Source: Podarcis liolepis (lineage: Eukaryota). Taken from it: a DNA stretch of 64,000 nucleotides. The notes beneath the pieces were generated by a model. The model was not told the origin of the DNA, made no database searches, and saw only the letters and a list, made by a program, of their open reading frames with translations. Of the stretch, positions 14,443 to 47,147 are shown in pieces (the stretch's first letter is position 1; each line of letters starts with the position of its first letter). A program made the position numbers and the translations under genes. Location: the NCBI GenBank assembly GCA_965112155.1, contig OZ218110.1, one strand, 5' to 3'.

Positions 14443-14580
14443 CAGGCATAGGCAAACTCCGGCCCTCCAGATGTTTTGGAACTACAATTCCCATCACCCC
14501 TGACCACTGGTCTTGTTAGCTCGGGATGATGGAAATTGTAGTTCCAAAACATATGGGGGGGCAGAGTTTGCCTATGCGTG
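14443..14580. mobile_element. hAT-family MITE
   Basis: TIRs CAGGCATAGGCAAACT / AGTTTGCCTATGCGTG (15/16 match), perfect 8-bp TSD GTGTAAAA (14435-42, 14581-88), internal palindrome. Confidence 0.88.
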
Positions 14581-22062: not shown

Positions 22063-22917
22063 GTTGAGGTGTATCTAAATAACATCAGGCAGTGTTAATA
22101 AAGCTTTGCACTTGTAGAACCAATGCAGGAGTTTCTGTAACTCAGCTGAGCAAACCACATTATATATAGGTTAAATAAACAATTCTACTATATTATGAAG
22201 TTGACATTCAAATGAGCACAACATGTAATTATTTGCTAAGACTGTATTCCTGTCAATGCATAGAAACTTTGCAGGTGGGATCACATTAGAAGAGAAAAGT
22301 CTCCCTGTTTCTACTCAGCACCTATTGAGGGTGATTTCATTTCATTTATTTTACAAAAGAAACACTGCATTTCAACTGCATTCAGTCCTTTAACATTATG
22401 TGCAGTTAAAGGCCAAAGACAACAATCCAAATAAATTGATGTTTACATTTGAGGATGGGATTTGTGGAAAATTCTCAATGTTCTTTGCTTTCAGTGTTAG
22501 TTTCACCAAAAAAATGTGTAACTCATTGGTTTCTCAGGGATATTTCTACCAAATATAGCTCACATACATTAGTCAGCCGAACAGATAAAGGGCTGCTTTC
22601 AAGTTCATGGGTGAGGCAAAACTTATGTGAATGCTATGCATCAGCTGCTTCAATTTCTATGCTGGCAGCAACTAAAGTAAATAGTATGTTTGTATGGATA
22701 ATTTCAATAAAGGAGCTTACATAGCTCATCTGTGCAAGCTCTGTATTAAACAATACAGCAGCATGTAAGAGCTCACCAGTATCTAGACACACAAATCCAT
22801 ATGCACATTTAGAGACATCTTAATTTCTAATATCATGCAGAATTGATCTCATTGGCAAGCAGTTGGCAACAAATATAATGCAGTATGAAATAAAAGAGAG
22901 GGTGAAGTTCTGCCAAT

Positions 22918-23680
22918 TGTGTGACCAGGCAGTGACAGCCCCAGCCCCCAGGGACCATAAGGAAAGAATAAAGACTCTGATGATGTTATATGGAATTACA
23001 ATTAGGCTACAACTTTATTAAACTTCTGAATGTAGGAAGACCTTGGCTTAGGCTGTGGGTGTGTATCCCTCCCAACCCCCCAGCCAGGGGGAGCTGGGGC
23101 TCATCAGGGTAAATGGGATATGGGGGTGCTCTGCAAGACATAAGTGTAGCAGGCAGCCCAGCCCATATTCCCGCATGCAGGGTAGTTTACTGACAACCTT
23201 TCAGTGGCCAGTGACACCCATTATATATAACCCCTTTAAGAGGAGACCCTGGAATTGCCGCTGCAGGGGGGAGTGAATCACCACTTCACGCCCTCCCCCC
23301 ATACAGGGAAGAAAAGACTAAAGGATTCCACCCAAGGCCATAACCGCCAAAGTTGTGACGAACTGCTACAGGGAAGACGAAACCTGCCAATGCAGGAAAA
23401 TTTCTTCCCGGTCCTTCAACAGCAACCAGTCAAAGACCGTAGCAGCGCCCGCTAAACAGGAAGAAAAAGTTAACCTGCAAACAAGAGAACATTAAACTAA
23501 GGGAGGGTAGAGAGGGTGAATCTCCTAAGCCGACTGCCTGGATACTGTTGGCTCCACCTCCCAGCAATGAAACTTGACTACAGAAGCTGGGCATGAACCT
23601 CCAAAGATTAACACTGAGAGGCAGGCCAGTCCCTGTTTGCCAGTAAGTTCCCTGGGAACTGTAGCACCGTGCGCAATCCT
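22918..23680 (-). mobile_element. DIRS/Ngaro- or LTR-like non-coding retroelement remnant
   Basis: Shares AATAAAGTTGTRGCC and the stem-loop/CGTCACAACTT motif with elements at 26.1, 33.4 and 38.2 kb; boundaries approximate; family call is from recognition only. Confidence 0.5.
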
Positions 23681-24138
23681 GTAAAGGGCTCCCACTATGT
23701 AAAGTGTGAGTGCTCACTATCAAACTTAAGAATTGTCTGATAAAAGAGCCTAAATGATTGAAAATGCATACTTGTTCACCAACAGACTCAAAAACTACTA
23801 GGAACACCTCCAGATGACCTATTTGCTGAGTATTCATCCTAATTTGTTTGCACATAGTTTATTCAGGGTTGGATTTATTGAGCATTTGTTCTCATTTGTT
23901 TGTCAGGCTGTAATAAAACAATGAATGTTCACCTTGATTTCCTGTTAATAATTAATTCATCAAAATATTGGTCTATTACTCCATTGTCAAACTATAAAAC
24001 CAGTTGAAAACCGTAGAACTCAATGTCAGTTTTCATGATGTTTCTGCATCTTGAAAGTGAGCATTTCTGATTACATTTTCTCTGTGCATCCATTTAATGA
24101 ATGAACAGCTACAAGGGCTTGTGTGTTTTTCTGTACAC

Positions 24139-24159
24139 GTGTGTGTGTGTCTGTGTGAC

Positions 24160-24204
<45 letters not shown>

Positions 24205-24211
24205 CGCGCGC
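24139..24211. repeat. Compound (GT)n/(GA)n/(GC)6 microsatellite
   Basis: Read directly from the sequence. Confidence 0.95.
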
Positions 24212-25736
24212 ACTGGACTGGAAAGATGATAAACAAAATGTGAAAAGAGAAATATGAAAACTGTAGTCAGTCACTATGATTATTGCATGACATTCCTGTG
24301 ACTGGAGTCAAGATTGTGCCTGAGCATGATCTGCTGCCCAGTCTTGCTGCTATTGATGCTGCTGCAGTCTCACACCTCTCCTGCCTCTAGCATTGAGTAC
24401 CTGGTTCCTATGTTTGTGTGTAAGAGCAGTCTGAGATATTACCTGTTTTCATCCTGATGCTCTGTCAAATAAAACTATTTAATTTAAACAGCTGAAATCT
24501 AAATGGGAATTGAAAAATAAATATAAAAGAATACTTCACCCAGGCTGTGATCAGGTCACAGGCAAAGAGTGTTCAGGAATCCTGGAGCATGGGAATAGTT
24601 GGACACATAACATAATTTCTGTTGATCTTCATCAGTTGTATGTTAGGTAGAAGCCATTATATTAGTGAAACATCATTATATCCAACACTTCAAAGCTGTC
24701 TAGGTGTCTCTGACACCTTGACAATCTTGCCCTATACTGAAAATGTGGATGAATGTTTTGCGAGATCCCTCCCCCTGCATAATACAATTCATCTATAGGT
24801 CATATATATATATATCCAAACCAATTAATCAACCTGAAAAAAATCTCAGTAAGAAATGTAAAAGAAGAAGAAAACACTAAAACCATAAGGGAAATTAATG
24901 AGTAAAGTAGAAATTCCTAACAATCAAGAATCAACAAAGGCAAGAAAAAAATAGAAGACACTCAAGGGAGGGAGAGCAATAAGTGCACTTAAGATAATGA
25001 GGAAAAATGTATTACTATGTATGTTTGGGGTGAGTGGGGGGTATATGAATGAAAGAAAGAGATGCGTCTGAGGGGAAAACAAGGGGGTGCATACCCCTAA
25101 ATATTTTGTGAATCTTTGTACTTTTGTCCATTTAATGCATTTATTTTTCCTGATTTGAACTATAAAATGAGAGAACTCCTAAACATTTTTTGAGGGGGGG
25201 GGAAGCACTCATGAGGGGTTTCATGTAACTCACCCTGACAGCTTTCCTTGAAGGGTTAAGAGGGAATAAAATGGTCAACTAAAAAGGAATGAGGTAAGCA
25301 AAAAGCAAAAACTCACATGAGGAGTCCTCTAGCAATCCAGTAAAAAGTTCAGGTGGTTAGCAATGGAAGACCAAGGCAGCAACAGCAAACTTTGCTGGTT
25401 GTAAGCAAGCAATATTTGTGACATTGCATGGTCATGGGATACATTCACCGAGGCATCCATCCTAGCTTCTGATTTCACAATTCTGTGGCAACATGCCATA
25501 GTTTTAACTCTCATCTTAAAATGGCAGGTTGCCCCCCCTTTTCTTTCTTATCATTGGATTATTTAGACATGAAGAAGAAAATTATGTGATCTGGCTGAGA
25601 GTGCAACAAATGTGATATTTACATGACCAAAAAATCCAATAAATAGGTCATGAGAATACTGGTAAATTCTATAGCTATTTCCAGATAATTTTATTTTACC
25701 AAACAAGTTTTTCTGTAGCTGACTTGTAGCTAAACA

Positions 25737-25876
25737 GTAGATAGGTAGCCGTGTTGGTCTGCCATAGTCAAAATAAAAAATTCCTTCCAGTAGCACCTTA
25801 AAGACCAACTAAGTTAGTTCTAAGAACTAACTTAGTTGGTCTTTAAGGTGCTACTGGAAGGAATTTTTTATTTTGA
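25737..25876. mobile_element. Palindromic insertion, probably a Penelope-like element terminus
   Basis: Perfect 54-bp inverted arms (25768-25821, 25823-25876) and a 13-bp direct repeat TTGTAGCTAAACA (25724-36, 25877-89); gtagccgtgttggtctg...gcaccttaaagaccaac resembles reptile Penelope ends. Confidence 0.75.
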
Positions 25877-26120
25877 TTGTAGCTAAACAAACACTCTGGT
25901 TCTGGTGTGGGTGTTGGATGCTTACAGCAGGGAAGGAAAATCTATGGCCCTCCAGGTGTGTCTGCATGACAGCTCCAATAACCCCTGACCTATGCTTATT
26001 AGATCTGACAAAAGTTGGAACCTAACAATATCTGGAAGGCAACACTTTTCAATCCTTGGACTCCAGCTACCACACAAGATTATTAACAGAAAGCAGGTGT
26101 CATTTGCATACCCAGGCACA

Positions 26121-26790
26121 TGATGCTTGCTATCTGGTGCAGGGTCTCAGTATGAAATAAGACATAGGACATTGATGTTGGGTGGAAATTGGCCACAACT
26201 TTTATTGATTGCAGATGGAATAGGCTTTGGCCAAAGTCATTGGGTACGTATCTTGTATCAAGCAGCCCGACTGCTGGTTGATAAGTAGGTGTAGAAAGGG
26301 GGGGGTCACCTGCCAGGGCCACCTTTTGGAAGGTTGCTATGGCCTGTTGGCCCCTGTGTGGGCTCTCAGGTAGAGACAGCCCTCCCTGGCCCCTTTACCT
26401 GATCAGCTAAGTATACAACCCAATGCCTTAACCACCCAAGTTGTGATGTTTTCTATGAGGTAGGTAAAAATCTACAGACCAGCCAATTTGTCTGCAGGAA
26501 AAATCCTCCCTGGCCCTGAATATGGTGACAACAAATACCATAGCAAGGTCCACATTGTCCTGCCCACACATCTTTGGACAGGACTACATACAGATTATAT
26601 ACAAATGGGAGAGTGGGTGGTGAATCCTGTGGTAAGGTTCAAAACGGGAGAGGCTCAGGGTGTGCCCCCCTGTTTAAGGCACTGCAACCCTGCTCATAGA
26701 GGTGACCTGACTGGCTAATATTTTTATCTCCCTGAATATCTGTGTGAGTGGTACTGTTAGCCACCAATCCTAGGGGGGGGGGGGGGGTTC
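26121..26790 (-). mobile_element. DIRS/Ngaro- or LTR-like remnant (same family as the 38.2-kb copy)
   Basis: Reverse complement of 26416-26516 is highly similar to 38205-38306; boundaries approximate. Confidence 0.55.
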
Positions 26791-28013
26791 CAAAACCCAG
26801 TGACCCTGATTTCACTGCTCATGAATGGGACAAAGAAATAGAGGTGAGGTTCAACTTAACCCTAGATCATGGCATTGTTTATTATTGTTATGTTTTGATC
26901 AGTCTTCTTCCTCATTAATATTTCCTGTGGGATTAGAGTTTTGCTTAAGTCTAACAGGATGCCCCAGTGGTTTTTCTCTTAATTTCCCTTCTTCCTTGGA
27001 GACTCTTGTGCCATTGATTATCATGCTTGCAGTTTAAACTCTTCCTTACTGAAATTAATAGTCTGTAAATTAACAGGCCATGAGGCAGTTGATATTTAAA
27101 AGACATTTATTTTTTTAGTAACGAACTCTGTTAAATGCTTTAAAGTGGCATGCTGCAATGCTGTGAGGAATCTAATTGGATGTCTTGTCAACAAACCACA
27201 GACTTAATAACTTCTCCAACTGTAAAATCCTGGATTATGGGCAAAGTATAAGGTAGGATGAATAATGAAGGAAAAGATGAAAACTGAGACAGCAGTAATA
27301 ATAGTTCTCTTTAATAAATGTTGGAATGGATGAAAATGCAGGACTGGGTCAGCACTGCTTTTAAAATTGTCCCGTGTGACAAAAGCAGCAGGAGAAATGA
27401 GACATATCTAAAGAGATTTATCATTGTTGGAAGTTAAAAGAAATGTGCAAAAATTAGACACCTTTAAGGTCAACTGGTTCTTTTTCTAGTGGGACAATTA
27501 AACACATTCTTACTTTTTAAAATTTCCCATGGAAATCAAGAGGTCTTTGAACTAATGTATGATGATGCTTATGAGTCCTGCTCTTAAGATCCAGAGTAGG
27601 AGAAAGCAGGAGAGACTGGGAAGACCTGCATTCAAGCTCCTATTTATGTTGCCCCGTTTTCAGGGACAATTTTTTTTGTTTGTTATTTCTTCAGGTGATG
27701 GTAATATGTGGATCTTGTTTTGTTTTGCTTTGCTTTTAGAAGCATAGTTTAGCCTCCTCTCTCGAGAAAGTGTAGTGGTTCTTTTCTGAGTCTGGAGAGC
27801 TAACATGTTTCTCCATAATGCCTCTTGTCTTTCAAGTAGAGATATTTCCCATTCTGCATCTGTAATGGAATTGTATCAAACGTGTTTTTAATACATTAAT
27901 TAATTAATTAATTTTATCACTTATGTGTTTGTTTCCCTAGGAGCCTTTAGAAGGAAGGATGGAATATCACAGCAGCAGCAACAACAACAGCTAGGCTGTA
28001 GCACACTGCAGAT

Positions 28014-28069
28014 AATGTTGCTGTGCATCAGAGAATGTTGCTGTGCATCAGAATGTTGCTGTGCATCAG
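28014..28069. repeat. Three tandem copies of the 18-mer AATGTTGCTGTGCATCAG
   Basis: Copies at 28014-31, 28034-51 and 28052-69. Confidence 0.95.
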
Positions 28070-28233
28070 TACCATTCACATCATTCAGTTTTAAGCATTC
28101 AACTGTGCTTAAGACTCATTGCTTTGATTGCTCTTCTGAATTGTGAAATTCAAGGCCAACCCATAATATTTGCAATATTGTGTTCCTCTCTTATTTGCAC
28201 CAGATTATATGTCTGAATATGTTTTACCCAAAG

Positions 28234-29190
28234 ATGCAACTTCTAAGCAGCACCGATAAGGAAAATCAGCCTAATGTGACCGAGTTTGTCCTTATAGGAT
28301 TTAGTAATCTCCGAGAGCTGCAAATTCTTCTCTTCTTGCTTTTTTTGCTTTTCTACATGGTTACCTTGGTTGGGAACATTCTCATTGTCATGCTTGTTAT
28401 AGCTGATAAACAACTTCATACCCCCATGTACTTCTTCCTTGGGAATTTTTCTGGCCTGGAGACCTGCTATAGTTCTACTATTCTGCCCAAGACTCTGGCC
28501 AGCCTTTTAACTGGTGACAGATCTATTCAATTCAATCTCTGCTTTGTTCAGCACTATTTCTTTGCATCATTTGGGGCAGCTGAGTGCTATCTCTTATCTG
28601 TGATGTCCTATGATCGCTATTTAGCTATATGCCGACCCTTGCATTATGCAACCCATATGAATGGTAAGTTCTGTGTGAAGTTAGTTGGTGTGTCTTTCAT
28701 CAGTGGATTTCTGGCCATTTTCATAACAATATCATTAGTGTCCAGGTTAGCTTTCTGTGGCCCCAATGAAATAAATCATTTCTTTTGTGATGTCTTTCCA
28801 CTCATAGAATTGTCTTGCAGTGACACTAGTCTTTTGAGGATTTTGATATTCCTTGTTGCTTCTGTATTCACCGGTCCTCCATTTTTGCTGACATTGATAT
28901 CGTATGCTTCCATTATCACTGCCATATTGAGAATCAAGTCCACCAGTGGCAGACAAAAGGCCTTTTCTACTTGCTCATCTCATCTTATTGTGGTCACAAT
29001 TTTCTATTCCACAATAGCCATTGTCTATGTGTTACCAAACACTGTCACACTGAGAGACCTTAACAAAGTATTCTCTGTCTTCTATGCTGTCCTGACTCCC
29101 ATGATAAATCCACTTGTCTACAGCCTGAGAAACAAAGAAGTAAAGAAGGCACTGAAGAGACAGATTCGTCAGTTGCTTGTAGATATGTAG
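28234..29190 (+). CDS. Olfactory receptor, class II, intact, 318 aa
   Basis: MQLL start matches the MQL starts of paralogs; NVT sequon; all OR motifs; an alternative in-frame ATG lies at 28219. Confidence 0.95.
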   Translation: MQLLSSTDKENQPNVTEFVLIGFSNLRELQILLFLLFLLFYMVTLVGNILIVMLVIADKQLHTPMYFFLGNFSGLETCYSSTILPKTLASLLTGDRSIQFNLCFVQHYFFASFGAAECYLLSVMSYDRYLAICRPLHYATHMNGKFCVKLVGVSFISGFLAIFITISLVSRLAFCGPNEINHFFCDVFPLIELSCSDTSLLRILIFLVASVFTGPPFLLTLISYASIITAILRIKSTSGRQKAFSTCSSHLIVVTIFYSTIAIVYVLPNTVTLRDLNKVFSVFYAVLTPMINPLVYSLRNKEVKKALKRQIRQLLVDM

Positions 29191-29407
29191 CTCAAACAAG
29201 ATGAATCCATATGTTTTCATGCACCAAATAGGAAATTGGATTTTATCAGACTGTATCACAATAAATAAATAAATCACTGCTCAATTTCAAAACCAGTTTA
29301 TCTTGACACATGGGAAACATCCCAATCTTGCACGTGAACGCAGATCTACCCACCATGGAGAAAGTGGAAAGAAATAAGATTCACACACACTCTCTCATAA
29401 TGATGGA

Positions 29408-29500
29408 ACAGGGGTCATCCAATTAAGTTGAAGGGTGGGTGATTCAGGACAAGTAAAAGGATACACTTTCATACAGCACATAGTTTAACTATAATGGCCA
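29408..29500 (+). mobile_element. CR1-type LINE ORF2 3' fragment
   Basis: acaggggtcatccaattaagttg...ttcaggacaagtaaaagg...tttcatacagcacatagtt resembles the CR1 ORF2 end. Confidence 0.45.
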
Positions 29501-30278
29501 TTCACCAATCCAGCAGTGGGCGATGTTTGTGACCCAGTGCAAGGCTCCTCCATCATCCCACAGACATGGCTCTTTCTTCCTGCCCATTGCCACGTCCCCA
29601 ACAGCCGTCACGGTGGCCTCTGGGTTCCCACCAAACCCAGATTCAAATTCAGTCAATCTGCAGGGGCCGGGGGCTGGGGTAACAGGAGCAGACTATGCCA
29701 AGGGAAATTTCACTCTGGTCCGCTTGTATAAAAGGGGGCCAAAGCAATCAGCAGCATGAATCTACCAACTAGTAATGTAGTGATGAAGCATTCATGCTGA
29801 ATTTATATATCATTTAATATTGACTTGTAATTAACATAGTGACTGTTTCAGAATTAATGAATTAAGCCAAGTAGGCAATCAGTCAGCCAAATCTGAGTGC
29901 ATCATCCAAGTCCTTTGCCTCTTTGTGTTAGAATGCCTGCAAGGTAACATTTCATTCTCAATGGCAGCAGCTTGGGGTTTGGATCCTGAAAGCATCAAGG
30001 CCATGGCATTCCAAAGCATGTTTGGGCTCAGTCAAAATTCCAGCCTTGTTCATCGGCCTCTTGGTCAAGCGGTTTTATATTTCACACAGGGGCAGGGAAT
30101 GGCATATCCAAATTAAGCCAGGAAAGGGATTTAATTTAAGGAAGGGGTGGGGGAAATTCAGGTCTGGGAGCCAAATGTTGCCTTCCAGGCCTCTCTGTTT
30201 GGCATTTGGAACCCACCACAGTCAACTCCTCTTTTGCCAGGCCACATTCCTCACACACCTTGTGTATTTTTTGCAATA

Positions 30279-30520
30279 CAGTGGTATGTCGGGTTACAGA
30301 CGCTTCAGGTTACAGATGCTTCAGGTTACAGACTCCGCTAACCCAGAAATAGTACCTCGGGTTAAGGACTTTGCTTCAGGATGAGAACAGAAATTGCATG
30401 GCAGCGGTGCTGCAGCAGCAGGAGGCCCCATTAGCTAAAGTGGTACCTCAGGTTAAGAACAGTTTCAGGTTAAGAACAGACCTCCAGAATGAATTAAGTT
30501 CTTAACCCGAGGTACCACTG
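30279..30520. mobile_element. Tc1/mariner (Tigger-like) MITE, second family
   Basis: CAGTGGTA...TACCACTG termini, TA TSD, internal ttcaggtta repeats; inverted copy at 59125-59366. Confidence 0.85.
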
Positions 30521-31341
30521 TATCCTTGGATATTCCCTGCCTTGCTGGAATGTGTCCTTGCACTCTAATGACACTTGCTTGTTCAGATGGATGGTGGAGA
30601 TGGGTGTGAGAGTGTGTGTATCCACTAGGCTACTGTATAAACATAAAATCCATCTCTCCACCCTCTTTTTGCTTCTGACTCTATCTACCACTGCCATGTG
30701 CCTGTTTGCCAGAATTGGAGATTGCCCACTCCTGAATTAAGATGCTCAGCAGACATCATTAAAGAAAATAAATGTATATATTGCTGATTGCTCCCTGTCC
30801 TGTAAATTCCCCTTGAGTGCAGAATGCACTAGTAATAAGGAGGGGCATCTTATAATAATCACTACCAAGGAGAATCTAATCTTAATGTATAAAAGGCAAC
30901 TCACATTCAAAAGATTCTTTCAGATGTGATAGGCTCCTTTCTGTATTTTCTCCAGTAATATAATAATAATGGACATGGTTCTGTTAGCATCTGCCTAGAA
31001 ATATATATTTGGACCTTGAGATCCAGATTAAGTAGGGTTGTCTCCCTTTATCTGTTTAGAGAAAGAGACATGAAGGTGGAAAGGAACCTGGCGACATTTA
31101 GGAGGTTTCAATTAACACGTTTCTTGATTTTGACTTTCAGTGCTGCCCACATTTTTTTCTTCAGACTAAGTACTGCAATGTATTAAATGAAAGAACAGCA
31201 GAAGAATCACAAAGGAGATGTTAGATAGTATGGGTAAGACTATCCAGCATGACAAAACAAATTCTATAGATGAAGAACTTCTAATGAAATTATGTGTTGG
31301 TTGCTGAAACGTTGGACAAAATTAACCAATGTGAATCAGTT

Positions 31342-31359
31342 ATGAATACCCAATTAAAG
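31342..31359 (+). CDS. Predicted upstream coding segment (MNTQLK) of OR 31729-32706
   Basis: ATG AAT ACC CAA TTA AAG|GTATGT is a phase-0 consensus donor, in frame with acceptor ttttttacag|GTG at 31729; in-frame stop upstream at 31285. Confidence 0.6.
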
Positions 31360-31728
31360 GTATGTGGCCTTTTACTCTCTTTTGAAATATATAAAATGCA
31401 TGCAATATAGTACTTAACAATGCTTAGAATTACAAGGGTGCAAGGCTGCTGGAGGTGTGAGTTAGATGGAGGAATGGAAATTTGGCAGGCTGGATTTCTA
31501 ATGCAGATATTGTAGTTCCATTAGGAAACAGGAAAGCCATATTCCATTTGAGAAATGAAATTATCATTGTTGGAACTATAAACTCTTGCAAAAGCTAGCC
31601 AGGTTAAAAGTTGATGCAGCTGAACAATTATCATATGGAGAACAAAGGAAATGTGCTCCTTTTGAAGTGTTAGGATCCAAGATATAAAAACCATTTAATT
31701 TTGCCATGAACTTGTTTCTTTTTTACAG

Positions 31729-32706
31729 GTGCAGTTATATGAAAATAAAGAACAGCTAAATCATACACATGTAACTGAATTTATTCTTCTGGGATTTGGA
31801 GATCACCACCAGGCACTGCTGATTCTTCTTTTCCTTTTGTTCCTTTTCATCTACATTGTGACGATGGCTGGGAACATCCTCATCATTTTACTAGTTGCCA
31901 CTGACCGACACCTTCACACCCCAATGTACTTCTTCCTTGGGAACCTCTCATGCTTGGAGACCTTCTGCAGCTCAAACATCTTGCCAAGAATGTTATCCAG
32001 TTTCCTTACGGGAAGGAAAGTGATTTCAGTCAATGCATGTTTTGTGCAACATTACTTCTTTGGTTTTTTTGGAGGTGTGGAATGCTACTTATTATCAGCA
32101 ATGTCCTATGACCGGTACTTAGCTATATGTAAACCTCTCCATTATGTCACCATGATGAATGGCAAATTGTGTTTCCAACTCATAGTCAGCTCTTGGTTTA
32201 GTGGTTTTCTGTCAATTACTATGACAACGATTATCATGTCCAAGTTAGTTTTCTGTGGTGACAATAAAATTGACCATTTCTTTTGTGACACCTTCCCCAT
32301 CATAGAACTATTTTGTGGTGACACTAGCACCTTAAAGTGGTATATATATGTTTTATGCTCTGCATTCACCTTTCCCCCATCTATATTGACCTTCACATCA
32401 TATACTTTCATAATTATAGCCATAATGAAAATCCCTTCTGCAACCGGAAAACAAAAAGCATTTTCTACCTGTTCCTCCCATCTCTTGGTAGTTACAATTT
32501 TCTATGGCACACTGATGGCTGTCTATGTGATTCCGAACACTGACAGACTGAATGCCCTTCACAAAGTCTTCTCTATCTGTTATACCATCCTGACTCCCAT
32601 GATCAATCCCATCATATATAGTTTAAGAAATAAAGAAGTAAAGGAAGCATTGAGAAGACATATTTCATTCCTAGTAGTGCAAAATGAGAAGAAAAGACAG
32701 ACTTAA
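31729..32706 (+). CDS. Olfactory receptor, class II, main coding exon (begins GTG; 331 aa if spliced)
   Basis: NHT sequon and all OR motifs; no in-frame ATG before TM1; strong polypyrimidine acceptor at 31728. Confidence 0.92.
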   Translation: MQLYENKEQLNHTHVTEFILLGFGDHHQALLILLFLLFLFIYIVTMAGNILIILLVATDRHLHTPMYFFLGNLSCLETFCSSNILPRMLSSFLTGRKVISVNACFVQHYFFGFFGGVECYLLSAMSYDRYLAICKPLHYVTMMNGKLCFQLIVSSWFSGFLSITMTTIIMSKLVFCGDNKIDHFFCDTFPIIELFCGDTSTLKWYIYVLCSAFTFPPSILTFTSYTFIIIAIMKIPSATGKQKAFSTCSSHLLVVTIFYGTLMAVYVIPNTDRLNALHKVFSICYTILTPMINPIIYSLRNKEVKEALRRHISFLVVQNEKKRQT

Positions 32707-32818
32707 GATTTGCTAAAGGTGTTGTTTTCTCAAAAGTGACTTCAAATTTTATAGCATCACTAAACATATATGCTTTCATTTTTATAGATAAATGTGCTCC
32801 TTTTTTGTGCACATTAGA

Positions 32819-32822
<4 letters not shown>

Positions 32823-32861
<39 letters not shown>
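32823..32861. repeat. (CA)n microsatellite
   Basis: Read directly from the sequence. Confidence 0.95.
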
Positions 32862-32863
<2 letters not shown>

Positions 32864-33371
32864 AATGTGGAATGCCAGAATCTGGACTAGTTCCATCCCA
32901 AATTTAGCAAATTTCTAGCCTCCTTCCACAGGCTGAATCTAGCTAGAGAACCACAGAAATACCTGGGTAGGCCTTGCTCTATATTTTCAGTCAGGAGAGT
33001 GGTACAAGTTTATAAGAAACTACATTTTCTTTCCCAGGAATCATGCATCTCACACACACAACTAAACTTTGATGCTTTCACTTGGTTACTGTTAGATCAG
33101 AATTGTATGTGGGATTTTTCTAATCTTTTCTTCATTACCTTTTATCCTCCTGTTTTACCTTTCATTTTTGTCTTTTCCTCTCCCTCTCTCCCCTTGACCC
33201 CAAATCCTCTCCTGTCCTGGGAACTCAAGGTCTCTAACTTTTGCAATATTCCTACAAGACGCAGAGCTTTTTATATATGTGAAGTACATTTGTAATTGCT
33301 ATGTAATCATATTGTAACAATGTTGTTGATGATGACAATGATAAAGCGTGTTCTCACTAAAAGAGAGCACG

Positions 33372-34149
33372 TGTTGCGGATGGGGCCGAACAAAACTCCA
33401 CTTGGTTGCCAGGCAGTATTAGATTCAAGGGGCCTGGAGCAGATTGGAGGATGGTGTTACTGGGGTAAATTTGATGTTGCCAATTTAGGGGTGGGATCAG
33501 TGGTTATTTAAGCAAGGTCCACAGCTTTCTCTTTCTCTTTCGCTGTGGACATCGGATCTCCCGCCCACCCTCCCTTGCTTGGGCTTGCGCCTTGACCTTG
33601 CTCTGCCTGTCATGGGGTCGTTCGCCTTGGTGCGGGGGCCCAGTAGGAATTTTTCCAATTGGCTGATTAGTGTGTGCCTTTTGGGTTTTGCCTACTGCTT
33701 AGCAAATCGTCACAACTTGTAAGGTTGGCGGTTAGGCATTGGTTAAATTGGTTGGTGGAGGGGTATGGATTGGCTGTGCCTGCCCCTCCAATGCTGCTGC
33801 TGATGGGTATTCCGTTAAAGGAATTCTGGGGCTTACCATCCCTTCGTCCAAACCCTTGGAGCAGGGTGCGGGCCGTGTAAGTTCCCAAGGAACAAGCAGG
33901 GAATAGCTGAGGGTCTGTGTCGCAGTCCCAGCTGTCCCTGGTCTTGTTCCTCCACACGCTGACTCACGGGAGTCAGCGCTGTCCCCAAGGCGGGGGGGAC
34001 AGATAGTCATAACCAATGCCTAAGCAACCACTCTCAATTTGTATGAAAATAAAGTTGTGGCCAAAAGTATGCCAAAAACCTTAAACAAAAATTATGTGTG
34101 ATGTGTGAGTTATTGGGGTAGGGGTTTTGGGGGACCTCAGCACGCAACA
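33372..34149 (+). mobile_element. 778-bp DIRS/Ngaro- or solo-LTR-like element
   Basis: Inverted termini TGTTGCG...CGCAACA, GC-rich, AATAAA at 34048, no clear TSD, several internal inverted repeats. Confidence 0.65.
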
Positions 34150-35465
34150 GTAGTACAGTAGTCACTCAATCATTTAATATTGATTAAGAACATGTATATT
34201 GTTTTGATCACAATTTGTATTTGTATTTTTGCAACAAGTTCACCTTTGGTGGGAATTAAGACTAATTTTTTGTTGGGGTGTGCATGTGTGGTTTACCTTT
34301 TGTAGTTGTGGTATATATTTATCTTGGATTTAATGTTTTGTTGAGTATTGTGTGTTAATTTTGTGTATTAATTTAGACTATTGGTGGCATTGAACAGGGG
34401 AAAATTAGCAACTTAAAAAAATACAGGGCTGAAATGTACATCTTGCAGACTGAGGTGTCTGAAAACAGATATGTTTTGCTTCCTTCCTGAAGAGATAGAA
34501 AAATAGAGCAGATTTTTGTATCTCTTCGGGGAGATTCCACATCCACAGAGTAAATGTGGAAATGAATTATAATGATATCATAACTTCAGATGATGTTGGC
34601 ACATGGAACAAGGACTGGAGAATGTAAACAACAGTTGGGTGTATCTGGGTAGAGGCAATCTGTCAGTTGTTTTAGTTTGGTTTGACCTGTATCAAGCTTA
34701 AAACAAAAGAATTTACCACAGTTCACCTAGTTCTTCTGGGTGAAATTAGTTGTCTATCTACCTTTCAATTACTGAAGCACCTGGGTAAATTCCCTCATGC
34801 CCCATATTCAGCTGAGGATCATCAGAATTATAGCAATGAAGGGATGTATTAAGAAAAAATGTTGCAGTGAAAGTAGCTAGCAGTACTTAAGTGAAGCTAT
34901 AAATAAGACCACCCTTTGGCCTAACCTGACATTTCTACCTCAGATACCTAACTCCTAAGTGAGATTCTATTGTTTTATAAGCAAGATGGTTTATATTGAG
35001 ATTATCTAGTTCATGTGTGGAATATGTTTTTCTAGCCTTCTTAAATCACTTCTTGACAAAATTCTTTGCATGTTCCATCTGGACCTCTGAGTTGGTCTTG
35101 AAACTTTATTTTTGGTGAAGCAGGTGGCAGCACAGAGGTATGAGGCACCTCTGAAAAAATATCCACTCATTTTAACCCTCCACCCTCTTCAAAATTCCTT
35201 GAATATTTCACAGGAAACACCAAATTCTTCTCAAACACCTTTCCCAGTTGTGTCCAATTCAGAAGGCAGAAAGAGAGATAGATTGGAATGTATCTTCATC
35301 TGGAGGTTTTCTTCTATTACTTACTTCCTCAGTCTAGGCATGCATCAAAAATCCTTGTTCTTCCTCTCTCTTATTCAGTCAGTCCTTTTTCTAAAGGCCT
35401 TACTCTCTTATCATAGCCCTGGGATACATGTGAAGGAAACATGCCCTGGCAGACCTTGTTCTGAA

Positions 35466-35683
35466 ATGTTCATGATGCTCTCTCTGGTATTCCTTTCACT
35501 GCTGTTTCCAAATGTGGTAGGGAAGGAACCCCACTTTAAGTGTATACGTGAACACCGCTACCCAGAGGGATACCATAAAGATGGGGACTTCATTATTGGC
35601 GCACTTGTATCTCAGTTCCTTACATGGGAAAAGCTAGAGGGATTTGATATTCAGCCTCCTCTTGCTTACTCATTAGATCCATA
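35466..35683 (+). CDS. V2R exon 1 (signal peptide, GDFIIG motif)
   Basis: [15 protein letters not shown]...[13 protein letters not shown]; donor TA|gtaagt. Confidence 0.88.
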
Positions 35684-38600
35684 GTAAGTCACTCTTCTTC
35701 CTTTAACTGTGTTAAAGTTGTTTCAAATATGTTGTGAAATGCTTCTTATAAAATAAAGAAAGTTCATTTATTTCAATAAAGATGAATCCCTGTAAGGGTT
35801 TTGTTGTTGTTGTTTTTGGTGGGTATACAGACATGTTTCTTCATATTCTTCACACATACTTGAATACATATACAAAAATATTTAAATAAGGGCTAAACTG
35901 GGAAGATTTTTTTAAAAAACTCTTCAGCAATTACATATATTTTCCCCAAACTACTCAATGATCACGCCAAACCAAGCTGGTATTTCTCTCCATTCCACAC
36001 ATTACGCAGAAGTAAACCTTGGTTTGCCTGTGAATGTTTACTCAACAGCTGCCAACAGTTGTGATTTCAATGGGGTGTACTTATGATCCAGTTCTATTTT
36101 GTTATGATTACTGTATTTTTTATAAGTGGTTTCTTGCAATTACTCTTGAAATTAAATTTTGCAGTGTGTGTGCATGTGTGGTGGTAATGGAATACTGCAT
36201 CTTCTGTGCATTTACAGAATTAATTCTCATTGCAGTCCCTTGACTCGCAATTATCAACATGTTCTTGCCTTGGTCTATGCAGTAGAGGAGATAAACAAGA
36301 ACCCCAATCTGCTACCCAACATGACTCTGGGATTTCACACCCATGAAAACTATTTCAATGCAAGGAAAACATATGAATGTTCATTAAGTATCCTTTCAGG
36401 AAGAGGCAGAACAGTTCCCAACTACACCTGCAGGAAACAGAACAACTTAATAGCTGTTATTGGAGGGCTAAAGTCCATGTCATCCATTCAGATGTCAACT
36501 GTCTTAGGTTTATACAAGATACCACAGGTGTGTATATTGGAAGAGACTTTCATGATAGAACATTCAGACATCCAGATCTTCTTTTGGCATATTAGCGATA
36601 TCAGACAGTTTATATGTGAGCACGCTTTCACCACCAATAGGAAGGATGTTGGGATGTAAATTAATATGGAAATGTGTGATACTTTGTTTGTGACTCTCAG
36701 TGAAAAGGGTACTTGTCTTCTTTCCCCCTCATTTTAGATCAGCTACGGATCATCTGATGAAGTATTGAGAAGTAAAACCCTTTTCCCATTTTTCTACCGG
36801 ACTGTCCCAAATGAAGGTCTTCAGACCTTAGGAATAACCAAATTAGTTTTGCACTTTGATTGGACGTGGGTTGGCCTCATAGCATCTTATAATGATCAAG
36901 GTGAAACCTTTGTCCTGAACTTGAAGAAGGAATTTGTCCAAAAGGGTGTGTGCATTGAATTTACAGAAATGCTTCCCAAAATGCTTGATAAAACTATGCA
37001 TATAAAAAATAAAATAATTAAGTCATCCTCCAGTATCATTGTGGTGTATGGAGATACAGATTTCCTCATCTGGGTAAAGATAACTATTGAAAGTTCTGCA
37101 GTTTCAGGGAAGGTTTTAATCATCACATCCCAATGGGACTTCCTATCTAGTGTCTCTTATTTGCATATGGGATTTTCTTCCTTCAGTGGCACCTTGTCAT
37201 TTGCTCTCCATAAACATGAAATTGTGGGATTTCGCCATTTTCTTCAGAACATAACCCTCAGCAAATACCCAGATGATGTCTTTCTGCCACATTTTTGGGG
37301 GGCTGCATTCAGCTGTTTCATTCCATCACTAGATTCAGGCAGCATGTTTTGGCAACTATGTACTGGAAATGAAAGGATTAAGGATTTGCCTAAGTACAAA
37401 TTTGATTTGCAAACATTGGACTTGAGCTACAATATATACAAAGCTGTTTATGCCATCGCAAAATCTTTACATGAAATGTATTCATCCAGATACATCTCAA
37501 CAAAGATGGAGAACAGATCAAGACCAAAGATGCATAAAATTAAGCCATGGAAGGTAGTAAGAATATTTACTTTCTACTTATTTAAGGTTATGAGCAATTG
37601 CTGCTAGCTTCTGTTTCCACTAAAGAAAAGTATGTCTCAGGATGGATCTGTGTTAACAAAGGAATATTATTATTCAAGGTTTCCATTTCCTGAGAAATTG
37701 AAAGATGAATGACAGCAATGGTGGTCTCCAGCTTAAAGAAGGGGCAACCAAATTTTCAGTTTTCCAAAAACCCACCTGTTCCCACCAATGAAACAATTCA
37801 GTTGCAGTTGCACTTTCTACTACTTGCTTTAGTGTGTTCTTGTTAGCCAGATTACTATTGTTCTTCAAACTGTTTTTCCAGTGGTGGCAATCGCGGCTCT
37901 GCGTGGCCATGGGAAAACCAGGGGTTCTCACCTGCATGACCAGCAGCAGCAATAACAGCTTTTACCAGTAGCAGGGACTTCTGGGACATCTCTCCAAACT
38001 TCAGATTGGCCAATAGTGAGTGTGGTTTGGGAGATGAACCTGAGGGAACTAGTCTCCACTCAGATCCATCGCCGTTGCATAAATTCTTGCTGTGCTTTGA
38101 GTGGCCAGCACAGTCAACATTCTGTATCTTTTGGCCCTGCCCAAAGGCTAGTAGACAGTGCTCCAGCACAGCCTTGCTGTGGAATTAATCAGTTGCTGTA
38201 TTAAGGGCCAGGGAGGAATTTGCCTGCAGACAAATTAAGCCTGTCTGGAGTTTTTGCCTACCTCATAGCAACAGTCACAACTTTTGGCAGAAAAGGCATT
38301 GGGTTGTGTCAGTGAAGCTCAGATGCTGACAGTAGAAGAAGAACCAGGCATAGACATAGAACAGTTAACTGCAGAAGACAGAGAGGAGGGGGAGAGCAGC
38401 TGTAATCTGAGCTCTGAACAAAGGGGAGACAAAAGACAGGGCCAAAGTGATAGGCGGCTGTGTGAGAGCTCCAATAGTGAGTTAGATGTTGGAATGCAGG
38501 AAGCATTCGCTCCCAAATCTCGCAGGATCTCAAAAGTGGCTGAGATGTGTGAAGGATACTGGAAAAGAAGGTGGGGGGTTTCGTGCTGGGGAAGGGGGAG

Positions 38601-41600
38601 GAGCTCAGTTCGGGCAACTCCATCTTCTGGGGAGGATGATGAGTAGAGGAGCTCTGTTCTAATTTGTTGTTTTAGCAATAAATCTGAAATAATTAACAGC
38701 CAGAGTCGTCTCGCATTTGTGGGAGAGACCAAGCCATAACAGGTTGGATCCTTAGTCAAAACTGCAACAAAATGTTAAGGGTACTCTGGTAAAGGGGTCC
38801 ATGATAAAAGTTTTGATGATTAGCCCCAGATGGGGGCTAATGGGAGGTAAAACATCCCAAATCATGGCCTGCAATACTACTCTGTCCATGTGTTTCAATT
38901 AACAGGAGAGATCATGCTCATGGTCCCACAACTGGGGGTGGCTCATTGAGTGATTACAAAAGACAGGGCCTTTCCAGTGGTGACCCTCGGTCTCTGGAAT
39001 TCCATCCTTGAGGAAATATGGATAGCCTGTCATTGGTGGCATTTAGAAGCCAGTTAAAGTTTTATCCATTCGCTTGGGCCTTTAAGACCCAGTAGTTGAA
39101 AATGCTTGAAAACTTTTTCCAAGTTTGTGTTTTTAGAGTCTTAATGGTGTTATGAATGCTTTGTGATGATGTTTTTAATTACATTGTTCCCAACTTGGAG
39201 GACTTGCAGTATGCACATAAAAGCAAATCATACATAAAAATAAAACTATTACCGTTACTTCCTGTTACAAAAACACACACCAGAAGAACCACATTGTCTT
39301 CAAAAATGACTTTAAAAATAACAATAGCTTGCATCCAGACTAAATTAGTTGTCGTTAGTTCCCACCAAAATCAATAGGATTTAACATTAGTCATGATTAA
39401 AATATCACATTGATTTCATATTGACTCAAGTTTGGGTGTAATCCAATATTTGTCTTCCACATTTGAAATTAACCAAACAATTACTTTGGCTTGCCAGGTA
39501 ACTTGGTTCAACAGCTGTGGATCCATCACCGTGAAAGCCCTGCTCTGAGTACAAGAAGAGTCCATGTCTAAAAATGAAAGTGCCAAGAGTCAGGCTTCTG
39601 CAGCATAGTTCATAACTTTATTACTCGAAGCATGTATACAGATAATGTCTGTACAGGTCTAATGTTTTTATTATTTGGGATATGAATGTTGCTTGCATTT
39701 GAGCAAAAAATATTGACCATTGTGCATTTCCTTCTTTTAATTGATCATGCTATGCAGCTGCATCCTTTTCTGAACGAAGTCAGATATCATATTACTTCAA
39801 CAGATGATGTCTTTTTTGATGAGAGGGGAGAATCAACATCTGGATATGACATTCTCAATTGGTTTACCCTACCAAACGATACCTTAATTAACAGGAAAGT
39901 TGGTAGAGTCTACATGCGCCATCCATCAATTGAACCATTTTTCTTTATAAATTCAACAAGAATTGTTTGGCAAAAGAATTTCAAGAAAGTAAGAATTGCT
40001 ATGGGGTTGTTGTTGTGGGGTTTTTGTTTTTGTTTTTTATTTTAATCACTGATAATTAATATAATATACTACTATTCACTAGCAATTTCTCCCCCTACCA
40101 CACTAAGTAGTAATTTCATACATCTTTACATCTTTTAAATTGAATGCAATTGTAGATGATAATCAGAAAATCTGTCTATTTCTGCTCCATCATACTTTTG
40201 CATTTCTTTAAAGTATATTTGCTCAAAATATGTATTTAAATATGGAAAAAATATACACCTGCCCCATACTTTCTGTCTTGACTGACGTGAATCAGCAGGG
40301 CTTGAGATAGAATCATAGAGTTGGAAGGGATTCCATGGGCCATCTAGTCAAACCCCCTGAAATACAGGAATGCAGTGGTTTTAAACTCTGACTGAACATG
40401 GAGTCAGCAAGATGGGGGAAGGAGATACTGCATCTCCTTTTCTCCCTCTCAACCACATGTTTAATTAGGTTTTCAAGCTTATTTTAGGCCTCCCTAGGTC
40501 TTGGTTCCAGGATAAATCAGGGCTGATAGGAAGCCCTGGATCAGCCCCAAAATCAGAATGGGAGTCCTGTGTTCAGCTTCAATAAATGCACATTGCATTT
40601 GACCCATGGAAATGTCCACAAATATACAGATTCCCAGTAAAGTACAAAAGAATAAAAAATACATCTGCAGCCTTCATTTGAGCCATTTATTTTGTTTTCC
40701 CAGATATATAAAGTTTGCTTATATTCACAAAAAGCATATGGTCTTTCAGTAATCTCTTTCACATGCTGACATGAACCATTGCTTTCCCCCATCATTTTTG
40801 TGAATCTCTATTCTATTTTTTTCCTATATAAATAAAACACATTTTTATTAAAGATTTCTTGGTTTACAAAAGTATGTGCAATGTCTCTTTTTTTAAGTTA
40901 CATTTTTTACAGATCAATTTCATTTGTTGAGACATTAGTGTTACCTGAGGAAGAAAAGGGGGATAGAGGTGGAGGGGGGCATGGTGAGTGGGGGTGGGGT
41001 CGGGTGGCAATGTTTCTATTCTACTTAACATATGTGTGAGGTTTTGTGTCAGCCTTGCTTGTGTGGGTTTTCTTTACTATTCGCTTGTGTTCCTTTGGTT
41101 GTGAGAGAGGTTGGGGTTGGCCTAAGGTGTGGTTGTTTGTTTGTGATTGGCTGTGGTGAACTTCATTTTCATGTTGTTTTAGGTTCCACAATCTATCTGC
41201 ACCAAGAGCTGCCTTGAAGGTCAGTATAAGATAGCCATTGAAGGGAATCCTGTCTGTTGCTTTGCTTGTTCTCCATGCCCAGAAGGAACATTTTCTAACT
41301 ACACAAGTAAGAGCTATGGAGAGATCATGTCTTGCAAAAACCTGGAATATAGTCAATGTTCTGTGAATTTCAGACCCACACATATAGCTCTGAAAAATCA
41401 GGAGGGACTTCGTTCTTTGCAAATGCTCCGTATGCAAATACTCTATGACATGTAAAGGGTGTTTTTGTTTGTTTTTTACAATTCATTCATTTTATCAGAA
41501 GGCATCATCATAACCTATTTGATTAGAAAGAAGTGGTCTCAGAATTTTATCTAACCCAGCCTTCCCTAACCTCTTGCCCTCCAAATGTTCTAAGCTATAG

Positions 41601-46286: not shown

Positions 46287-47147
46287 GCTCGTTAGACTGT
46301 AGTGTAGGTTGTGAGGATGTAAAGTAAAAGCCTTAATGTAGCATGAAGGAGAGATATGATACAGCATCTTCAGATAAGATATTCATGATAATTTGGCCTA
46401 AAAGCAAAACATGCCATCTCATTATAATAATGAAATCACCATTGCCTTTTAAATATGTTGCTAAACTTGAATGAATTTGCCAATTTTAGATGATTGGGCA
46501 AATGCTTACCAAATTGAAATAGAAGATCTTTAAATAATGCTACGAAATGCTCATTCGTTTTTGCATTTGACATGAGATTGATCTGAAAGACCATACTCAT
46601 GTAATATGAGAAAAACATAAATAGAAGAGAAATGTGGTTACATGTAGCACTTAAAATGGCACTTAAGTGGCACTTAAGATCCAATAAGCTTTACTTACTC
46701 TTATTGCACATGTGTTAGTGCTATCTGAGTGTAGTACTGTCAATTTCCATAGGCAACTAGATTGTTTAAATTGCTTCTGACAGACACAAATAAGGAACAA
46801 CAAACGGAAGTCATGAACAACGGGTTTCATTAAACTGAGTTTTACTCAGAATAGACCTGCTGAAATGAATGAACATGAATAAGTCCATTCATTTCAGTTG
46901 GTCTTCTCTGAGTAAATATTTGCTTATTTTATAAAAGGTAATCTGTACAACTTCTTTTTTATTTTTTTGCAAACAAGTAAGTTTCAAAGGACCGGTAATA
47001 TTTGTTAAAAATCTACACTGATGTCACCTGTGTCTCACCTATAAAATAATTAGAGAAAAGTATGTTTCCTCTTCTAGAAGCTGTGTGGTATTATACTTCA
47101 CTATACATATTTATCTGGACTCTTTAGGACTTCTCAGGAGACATGTG

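What the first reader, a model, noticed from the sequence alone, without database searches (positions are those of the whole stretch)
23331..38306. Covarying stem-loop RNA motif shared by four diverged non-coding retroelement remnants
Seen: one ~100-nt module occurs at 23331-23415(-), 26416-26516(-), 33635-33745(+) and 38205-38306(+), in elements that otherwise align poorly (only the 26- and 38-kb copies are close). Its layout is outer stem P1, internal loop AATTTT / TTT(T/C)G, inner stem P2 with an (A)ATTG(G)-containing loop, then TAGCA..GTCACAACTT..GGCGGTTA.GGCATTGG. P1 changes sequence but keeps pairing: CAGTAGG/CCTACTG (33641/33691), GGGAAGA/TCTTCCC (23-kb copy) and AGGGAGG/CCTACCT (26- and 38-kb copies, one mismatch). 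P2 does the same: CCTGC/GCAGG, CAGAC/GTCTG and CAGACA/TGTCTG. Inference: compensatory change with conserved loops points to a selected RNA structure, such as a packaging/export signal, an RT or recombinase recognition site, or a ribozyme-like fold. From memory, a similar GGAAGGAATTTT...TTTTCGCCTTCC motif occurs in 3' UTRs of some vertebrate CR1 LINEs, which would mean a module shared across retroelement orders; this is unverified.
Basis: partly seen in the sequence, partly recalled or inferred. Interest (0 to 1): 0.7.

Follow-up and report, generated by a model that had tools for sequence, protein, structure and literature searches.

The report
Tail-clamping RNA fold in Ngaro retrotransposons
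The four copies are leftover end-pieces of a jumping gene that inserts with a tyrosine recombinase, and each carries a conserved, branched RNA fold whose U-rich loop likely grips and protects the element's own poly(A) tail.

Summary
The copies are not unrelated remnants. They are solo A-spacer-B end-units of Ngaro-type tyrosine-recombinase retrotransposons in a reptile olfactory/V2R receptor cluster. In 33 of 62 fetched coding copies the motif lies once, in the unique spacer just before repeat B2; the other 29 lack an intact spacer-B2 block. A tree-aware test gives 12-16 compensatory events against 2.6±1.5 in the null. Two long-range helices are predicted to park the RNA's 3' end beside it. 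Best reading (0.5): an ENE-like poly(A) clamp that stabilises only the full-length RNA. Boldest reading: the adjacent invariant GUCACAACUU is a self-priming site for reverse transcription. The whole fold also occurs in bird-like repeat DNA with no Ngaro genes. The CR1 link was not confirmed. No function was tested. The scan noted the same Ngaro/ENE reading before on other DNA (e1-9994920, e1-9066372, e1-9972237).

The parts
33343..34147 (+). Solo A-C-B end-unit of a young Ngaro family (805 bp, no target-site duplication)
   Evidence: Sharp ends in 30 loci; seven other loci 99.4-99.9% identical; 10 of the 40 places scored carry a second B upstream; full-length relatives encode RT, YR and a GDSL/SGNH-like ORF
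33343..33558 (+). Repeat A (216 bp), with TATA-like box 33505-33511 (promoter inferred)
   Evidence: A1/A2 identity ends at unit position 216; TATA-like word 53-58 nt before the A end matched by pattern in 21 of the 27 elements with a defined A
33559..33725 (+). Unique spacer C between A2 and B2 (single copy per element)
33592..33716 (+). Motif, 33-kb copy: closing stem P0 (33592-33605 with 33698-33712), hairpins Pa and Pb, P1 33641-33647/33691-33697, U-rich internal loop, P2
   Evidence: MFE fold, pair counts, CM 107 bits
33709..33718 (+). Invariant GTCACAACTT, complementary (10 bp) to 34052-34061; candidate primer-binding site
33726..34147 (+). Repeat B, with long-range helix 33727-33742 / 34013-34025, AATAAA 34048-34053 and AAGTTGTGGC 34052-34061
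22917..23716 (-). Solo end-unit of an older family (about 85% identity among copies); same ends and layout; no coding copy found
   Evidence: 30 of 30 loci fetched with its B repeat have the motif upstream and no ORF match
23352..23451 (-). Motif, 23-kb copy (short P2; compensated P0, Pb, P1)
   Evidence: z -4.6, CM 73.5 bits
26092..26719 (-). Decayed solo unit of an old family (5' end uncertain)
   Evidence: profile match; a B copy of this family directly follows an SGNH ORF remnant in L374/L402
26440..26552 (-). Motif, 26-kb copy
   Evidence: CM 81.7 bits
37883..38857 (+). Decayed solo unit of the 26-kb-type family, interrupted in B by a solo LTR; both ends uncertain
   Evidence: profile matches 37883-38310 and 38742-38857
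38168..38281 (+). Motif, 38-kb copy
   Evidence: CM 83.5 bits
38307..38742 (+). Unrelated solo LTR (TG...CA, 5-bp duplication GGTTG) inserted into the 38-kb unit; not part of the motif

Best explanation
The motif is a conserved branched RNA domain in the unique spacer just before the last terminal repeat of Ngaro retrotransposons, and its U-rich internal loop likely binds the element's own poly(A) tail as a triple helix (an ENE-like clamp) that would slow decay of the full-length RNA. Shown: the host element, the single-copy position, the stems and their compensatory changes, U-tracts of about 3-6 on both strands of the loop, and complementary segments that would close the 330 nt between the motif and the AAUAAA of B2. 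Inferred: transcription starts near the end of A and ends after the AAUAAA in B. Because B1 has the same signal but no upstream motif, only RNA that reads through B1 (the replication template) and the short RNA from A2 or solo units would carry the clamp. Untested: triplex formation and any effect on RNA half-life.
For: Position: in 33 of 62 fetched SGNH-bearing loci the motif sits once, in spacer C; it never precedes B1 or follows A1. It is the best-conserved part of the 3' unit: mean column conservation 0.91 against 0.71 for A and 0.82 for B, 29 elements. Structure: 19 of 38 pairs show two-sided change; paired cells 86% against 38-47% in slid controls; 12-16 compensatory events on a tree built from repeat B against 2.6±1.5, 0 of 1000 random re-pairings as high. 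RNAalifold independently recovers the inner part of P0, outer Pb and P1. Loop: AA-U(3-5) opposite U(3-6)-YG, between G-C-rich stems, persists while P1 changes among CAG/CTG, TAG/CTA, CGG/CCG, AGG/CCT and GGG/CCC. This matches the published ENE definition, a U-rich internal loop next to G-C pairs (PMC7583470, passages), and the Evade ENE lies likewise in a spacer before the 3' repeat (PMC12501189, first part read). Geometry: AATAAA is 305-345 nt downstream in the 32 elements, but only about 3-21 nt past the end of a predicted long-range helix that itself covaries (GGCATTGG/CCAATGCC; GGCACTGG/CCAGTGCC in L163, L166; GGCCTTGG/CCAAGGCC in the 23-kb family). GUCACAACUU pairs with AAGUUGUGGC at the hexamer. 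Portability: the reptile-trained model scores four bird-like loci at 60-64 bits (32-38 without structure); chance pattern matches score 13-23 bits. Those loci have no Ngaro protein match and read GACCAC where Ngaro has GTCACAAC. A protein-independent role fits this spread.
Against: No functional or probing data. The AA between the lower stem and the 5' U-tract is not part of the canonical PAN-type loop as I recall it. It could pair with the 3' U's and shrink the loop to a run of U.U mismatches. Several young families have only three U's per side (AATTTA/GTTTCG), weak for a triplex. In the 23-kb family the pair next to the loop is A-U. An ENE alone does not explain why the closing stem, the bulged hairpin Pb and GUCACAACUU are as conserved as the loop. 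In the whole-3'-end MFE of the 33-kb copy the closing stem is lost to an alternative fold. In the bird-like loci there is no nearby downstream AATAAA on the motif strand in L213 and L217. The poly(A) site was not mapped (one search gave no pile-up of ends). The structure was drawn from the same sequences it was counted on, and the 32 rows were hand-picked, favouring less decayed copies.
Confidence: 0.5

Rival explanations
1. The domain is the start site of reverse transcription. The RNA's own 3'-terminal segment AAGUUGUGGC anneals to GUCACAACUU at the foot of the fold and, once trimmed, would prime minus-strand synthesis into spacer C, with the junction binding RT. This can coexist with the clamp.
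For: B1 and B2 are 99.5% identical within an element over their first 300 nt (minimum 96.4%), against 93.5% to the closest other element and 72% over all pairs; own B2 is at least as close in 32 of 32. So B2 is re-made from the same template as B1 each cycle, which priming at the RNA 3' end would not give (inference). B1/B2 identity starts 6-11 nt after GTCACAAC in 32 of 32. Both strands of the 10-bp helix are among only six runs of 8 or more near-invariant columns, and the polarity puts the 3' end on template C. The DIRS primer is unknown (PMC7192593, passage). Self-priming has precedent in Tf1 (PMC4600332, passages).
Against: The 10-bp helix shows no two-sided change in the table of 112 distinct copies, so the pairing is not proven by covariation. 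Priming needs an unshown cut about 10 nt after the hexamer. Other template-switch schemes could also homogenise B. The bird-like copies keep the junction but lack GTCACAAC, so this cannot be the role of the shared core. No cDNA ends were seen.
Confidence: 0.25
2. The domain and its long-range helices decide between the identical poly(A) signals of B1 and B2.
For: The two B copies have different upstream partners. Upstream of B1 a covarying helix reaches towards the hexamer from the 5' side (-20 to -42 kcal/mol, 9 elements). Upstream of B2, GUCACAACUU pairs with the hexamer's 3' side; B2 is stronger in 32 of 32.
Against: The predicted pairing would hide part of the hexamer in B2, the copy that should be used. 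Hexamer accessibility differs inconsistently between B1 and B2 in 8 elements. It does not explain the U-rich loop.
Confidence: 0.12
3. A protein-binding signal for packaging (Gag) or nuclear export of unspliced RNA.
For: Single copy, present only in RNA that reaches B2; conserved bulged purine and junction bases.
Against: An element-protein site would not be expected in bird-like repeats without Ngaro genes. I recognise no known export-factor motif (recalled, not tested).
Confidence: 0.09
4. A self-cleaving ribozyme of a new class.
For: Four-way-junction layout with internal loops; retrotransposons often carry ribozymes (recalled).
Against: No Rfam match at the four sites at E<=10 or in 7 related loci at E<=0.5. 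The conserved unpaired bases are mostly U. A cut inside C would destroy a needed template.
Confidence: 0.04

Closest known systems
Ngaro superfamily of YR retrotransposons (order DIRS), hydrolase-bearing vertebrate type such as Xenopus DIRS-53_XT (PMC9210276, passages); solo AB repeats as in Cafeteria Ngaros (PMC8547959, passages)
   Same: A1-ORFs-B1-A2-B2 split direct repeats; RT, YR and SGNH-like ORF; solo end-units
   Different: The passages read mention no spacer between A2 and B2 and no RNA structure ('secondary structure' 0 hits in PMC9210276, 'spacer' 0 in PMC8547959). Here a 156-183-nt unique spacer holds the fold.
ENE stability elements: KSHV PAN RNA; plant and fungal TE ENEs; Arabidopsis Evade/Copia93 (PMC7583470 and PMC13541005, passages; PMC12501189, first part and passages)
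   Same: U-rich internal loop on both strands between G-C-rich stems, in a non-coding spacer before the 3' repeat of a retroelement
   Different: Single loop with a 5' AA and 3' YG; mounted on a multi-way junction; about 330 nt from the poly(A) signal and bridged by long-range helices; host is a vertebrate YR element. The review lists only stickleback retroviruses among animal TEs. Triplex not shown.
Tf1/Tj1 self-primed reverse transcription (PMC4600332, passages)
   Same: A primer-binding site complementary to the element's own RNA, next to a repeat boundary
   Different: Tf1 uses the 5' end of its mRNA. Here the partner would be the 3' end, in a YR element, and it is only inferred.
CR1 LINE 3' UTR hairpin as RT recognition site (PMC4316615, passages)
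   Same: Structured 3' non-coding RNA of a retroelement; one trimmed CR1 consensus keeps the half-site TTTGCCTTCCTCTGG
   Different: The described CR1 hairpin goes with the terminal microsatellite; presence of the full fold in CR1 could not be shown here.

Membership tests
Ngaro YR retrotransposon (33-kb family) | Split direct repeats A1...B1-A2-B2 | tested here: met
Ngaro YR retrotransposon (33-kb family) | Reverse transcriptase and tyrosine recombinase ORFs | tested here: met
   RVT_1 E 1.5e-12; Phage_integrase E 4e-6 (27.0 bits, cut-off 27.1) with N-terminal SAM-like domain
Ngaro YR retrotransposon (33-kb family) | No methyltransferase; SGNH hydrolase ORF after YR | tested here: met
   No MT family in 7 ORFs scanned; Lipase_GDSL weak, E 0.007, in 1 of 2 copies
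Ngaro YR retrotransposon (33-kb family) | No target-site duplication; ends rejoin at the B|A junction | tested here: met
   30 loci; junction CACGC-AAA-GCGTG is a short inverted repeat
Ngaro YR retrotransposon | RT groups with reference Ngaro sequences | not tested
   No reference Ngaro sequences were in hand
Ngaro YR retrotransposon (26/38-kb family) | B repeat follows the SGNH ORF in a coding copy | tested here: met
   1 locus (L374/L402), SGNH remnant E 5e-18; no RT or YR match in the 10 kb fetched
Ngaro YR retrotransposon (23-kb family) | Coding copy with split repeats | tested here: inconclusive
   0 of 30 B-repeat loci and 0 of 24 earlier loci match YR/SGNH; assigned by ends and layout only
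ENE | Internal loop with U-tracts on both strands | tested here: met
ENE | G-C pairs adjacent to the loop | tested here: inconclusive
   Upper stem opens with C-G pairs and the lower stem ends in G-C pairs (28-31 of 32 rows), but AA/YG lie between; the 23-kb family has A-U at the top
ENE | Close to the poly(A) tail | tested here: inconclusive
   305-345 nt linear; near only through predicted helices; poly(A) site not mapped
ENE | U.A-U triple helix with poly(A); protection from deadenylation | not testable with these tools
   Needs melting, probing and reporter assays
CR1 3' UTR element | Full motif downstream of CR1 ORF2, before the terminal microsatellite | tested here: inconclusive
   None found in this genome by pattern; in L212 the CR1 fragment ends about 700 nt before the motif; published alignment trimmed
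Known ribozyme or other Rfam family | Match to an Rfam covariance model | tested here: not met

The most novel reading that the evidence does not exclude
Ngaro RNA folds its own 3' end back onto spacer C. The U-rich loop clamps the poly(A) tail, and the helix GUCACAACUU/AAGUUGUGGC supplies, after trimming, the long-sought primer of YR retrotransposons, so B2 serves as primer rather than template and both B repeats are rebuilt from B1. The clamp module is portable and has moved between vertebrate repeat classes.
Probability: 0.2. Interest if true: 0.82.

Novelty: new variant of a known kind. Interest (0 to 1): 0.58.

Why it matters
No packaging, stability or priming signal of Ngaro elements turned up in the papers I could search, and the DIRS primer is stated to be unknown (PMC7192593). 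This gives a compact, covariation-backed RNA domain at a fixed place, with young intact elements in the same genome, so both ideas can be tested directly. If it is an ENE, it extends poly(A)-clamping elements, known mostly from plants, fungi and viruses, to an abundant reptile retrotransposon and to bird-like repeats, in a new junction-mounted form. If it primes, it answers an open step of the YR replication cycle.

Tried and rejected
Rfam: nothing at the four sites or in 7 related loci. Two carry Ngaro-type downstream words, one is unclear and one is chance. A stricter bird/CR1-type pattern gave 0, and blastn with the bird-like motif gave 0. These are exact or word-based searches and do not show absence. 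Metagenome scan: 8 of 12 loci are bacterial chance matches (5 of the 8 read; the other 3 not read). Viral contigs: 80 of 120 pattern loci scored with the model, best 19.4 bits, so chance. Expression: no RNA holder on record was listed. Four raw-read RNA runs gave 79-95 reads each out of 10-13 million, nearly all partial and mostly under 95% alike, piled on conserved blocks, with no strand or end information; no evidence either way. The whole genome could not be scanned with the covariance model, so other element classes carrying the fold may be missed. A tRNA primer site at TGGCGG was rejected: the TGG is broken in L114 and L164, and I recall no matching tRNA. Literature: 'Ngaro'+'triple helix' gave 5 unrelated papers; 0 papers for CR1/turtle/DIRS/conserved secondary structure; motif strings occur only in 2 unrelated papers; ENE+vertebrate+retrotransposon gave 1 unrelated paper. 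Tycowski 2012/2016, Torabi 2021 (both) and Mitton-Fry 2010 were not held. I know them only through reviews, and their ENE lists or supplements could contain a relative. The supplement of PMC9210276 and file 1 of PMC4316615 could not be read.
Full report
1. Observation. A covariance model later found these four and no other site in the window. The window is a cluster of olfactory receptor genes with a V2R-like gene in a 1.57-Gb genome; I infer a lizard-like reptile.

2. What the elements are. The 33-kb copy is an 805-bp unit (33343-34147) with sharp ends and no target-site duplication. Ten of the 40 places scored carry a second copy of its last 422 bp directly upstream. Ten such places were fetched. 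They have the layout A1-interior-B1-A2-C-B2, with A = unit 1-216, a unique spacer C = 217-383 and B = 384-805. Two of them encode RT (Pfam RVT_1), a tyrosine recombinase and a GDSL/SGNH-like ORF, with no methyltransferase hit. This is the published description of hydrolase-bearing Ngaro elements (PMC9210276, passages). Solo AB units are known from other Ngaros (PMC8547959, passages). The 23-kb unit has the same length, right end and spacing, but no coding copy was found. A B repeat of the 26/38-kb family follows an SGNH remnant in one locus. The 38-kb unit is split by an unrelated solo LTR. So the four are relatives, not elements of different orders.

3. Where the motif sits. A search with the SGNH protein gave 150 scored matches. 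I fetched 60, picked by hand to span 44-89% identity, and added L113 and L114. In 33 of these 62 the motif occurs once, in spacer C. The other 29 lack an intact A2-C-B2 block, 28 of them still showing B1. The motif never precedes B1 or follows A1; extra hits in L166, L172 and L186 lie in flanking DNA. It is the best-conserved part of the 3' unit (0.91 against 0.71 for A and 0.82 for B; 29 elements).

4. The fold. Distant families cap Pa and Pb with UUCG and GCAA loops. Single-sequence folding recovers a multi-branch form in L182 (z -4.1), L144 (-3.8) and the 33-kb copy (-1.4), and a three-way variant in the 23-kb copy (-4.6). The 26- and 38-kb copies and two other old copies fold poorly. On a sequence-only alignment of 32 hand-picked rows, 86% of cells pair and 19 of 38 pairs change on both sides; slid controls pair 38-47%. 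On a tree built from repeat B (31 rows; the 38-kb copy dropped), parsimony gives 12-16 compensatory events against 2.6±1.5 for random re-pairing of matched columns, 0 of 1000 as high. The share of double changes that keep pairing (0.72 against 0.51) is not significant, and the outer part of P0 has no compensatory event. RNAalifold supports inner P0, outer Pb and P1 but not Pa or P2, and offers a shifted register at the junction. The sense strand folds better than the antisense in 31 of 31 elements scored. The structure was drawn from these sequences, which favours it.

5. Outside Ngaro. Four are GC-rich, bird-like DNA that holds the whole junction with changed but paired letters. The reptile-trained model scores them 60-64 bits, against 32-38 without structure; chance matches to the same pattern score 13-23 bits. 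The pattern fixed P1 in these loci, but not P0, Pa or Pb. They show no Ngaro protein match, and the CR1 fragment in L212 ends about 700 nt upstream. The CR1 claim itself is unproven.

6. Long-range pairing. The start of B pairs with the segment just before AATAAA in all 32 intact elements, with compensatory changes. The invariant GUCACAACUU at the end of C is complementary over 10 bp to AAGUUGUGGC at the hexamer. It appears in the MFE of the 33-kb, 23-kb and L182 units and across most of 112 distinct copies, without two-sided change. These helices would put the RNA's 3' end at the foot of the junction in B2 only. B1 has a different upstream partner.

7. Mechanism. The loop has U-tracts on both strands between G-C-rich stems, which is how ENEs are defined (PMC7583470, passages). 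The Evade retrotransposon keeps its ENE in a spacer before the 3' repeat and loses RNA and mobility without it (PMC12501189, first part). I therefore think the arm most likely clamps the poly(A) tail (0.5). Against this stand the extra AA, families with three U's per side, and the conserved junction, which a clamp does not need. The main rival (0.25) comes from the repeats. B1 and B2 are 99.5% identical within elements over their first 300 nt, against 72% between elements on average, and the identity begins 6-11 nt after GTCACAAC in 32 of 32. That is expected if reverse transcription starts at the C/B2 border and B2 is rebuilt from B1. The 10-bp helix has the polarity to deliver the RNA's own 3' end as primer. 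The primer of DIRS-order elements is unknown (PMC7192593, passage), and self-priming is known in Tf1 (PMC4600332, passages). The two readings are compatible. Poly(A)-site choice (0.12), a protein site (0.09) and a ribozyme (0.04) rank lower.

8. Novelty. No Rfam family matches, and my paper searches found no description. The primary TE-ENE papers were not held, so a listed relative cannot be excluded. Earlier notes of this scan reached the same Ngaro/ENE reading on other DNA. I had formed it before reading them; they are not independent support. The homogenisation argument and the self-priming proposal did not appear in the notes shown. Verdict: a real, selected RNA domain of Ngaro retrotransposons, a new variant of a known kind if an ENE, with function untested.

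Noticed in passing
L212, L213, L217, L220 (metagenome contigs): GC-rich, bird-like (inferred from an avian-type CR1 fragment) multi-copy repeat with the complete junction, followed by two or more decayed copies about 173 nt apart; about 900 bp of shared upstream sequence; no Ngaro protein match and no Pfam family passing its cut-off in 4 ORFs. Identity unknown.
   Followed up: partly
G000 loci L146-L205: Three forms coexist: full A-ORFs-B-A-C-B, short (A)-ORFs-B (28 of 29 coding loci without the motif still have B1) and solo A-C-B. In the 23-kb family 30 of 30 top B hits are solos. Homologous recombination, recombinase resolution of the two B|A junctions, or mini-circles could each contribute.
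   Followed up: partly
L106-L111, L115: The youngest copies of the 33-kb family have no RT, YR or other plus-strand ORF of 200 aa inside the repeats, only internal tandem repeats: a probable non-autonomous subfamily whose A is 99.5-100% identical to the window copy.
   Followed up: no
L113/L114 and relatives, 45 nt before B1: The end of the SGNH ORF forms a long, covarying helix with the segment just before the AATAAA of B1.
   Followed up: partly
window 33593-33596 and 33709-33712: GUCA can pair either upstream (UGAC) or downstream (helix at the hexamer); both partners are invariant, suggesting a switch once B2 is transcribed.
   Followed up: no
window 38307-38742: Solo LTR of an abundant family (TG...CA, 5-bp duplications), inside the 38-kb unit, within a V2R intron.
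   Followed up: partly
window 25751-25894, 14443-14580, 46841-46916: Long palindromes (small inverted-repeat elements); source of spurious miRNA-like Rfam hits at 25.8 kb.
   Followed up: no
window 1505-57776 and 35400-43422: About ten single-exon olfactory receptor genes on both strands and one multi-exon V2R-like gene; local duplications at 1.1-2.6/4.9-6.4 kb and 12.8-14.0/17.7-18.9 kb.
   Followed up: no
L164, L203: Intact Ngaro elements inserted in tandem satellite arrays (units of about 185 and 177 bp).
   Followed up: no
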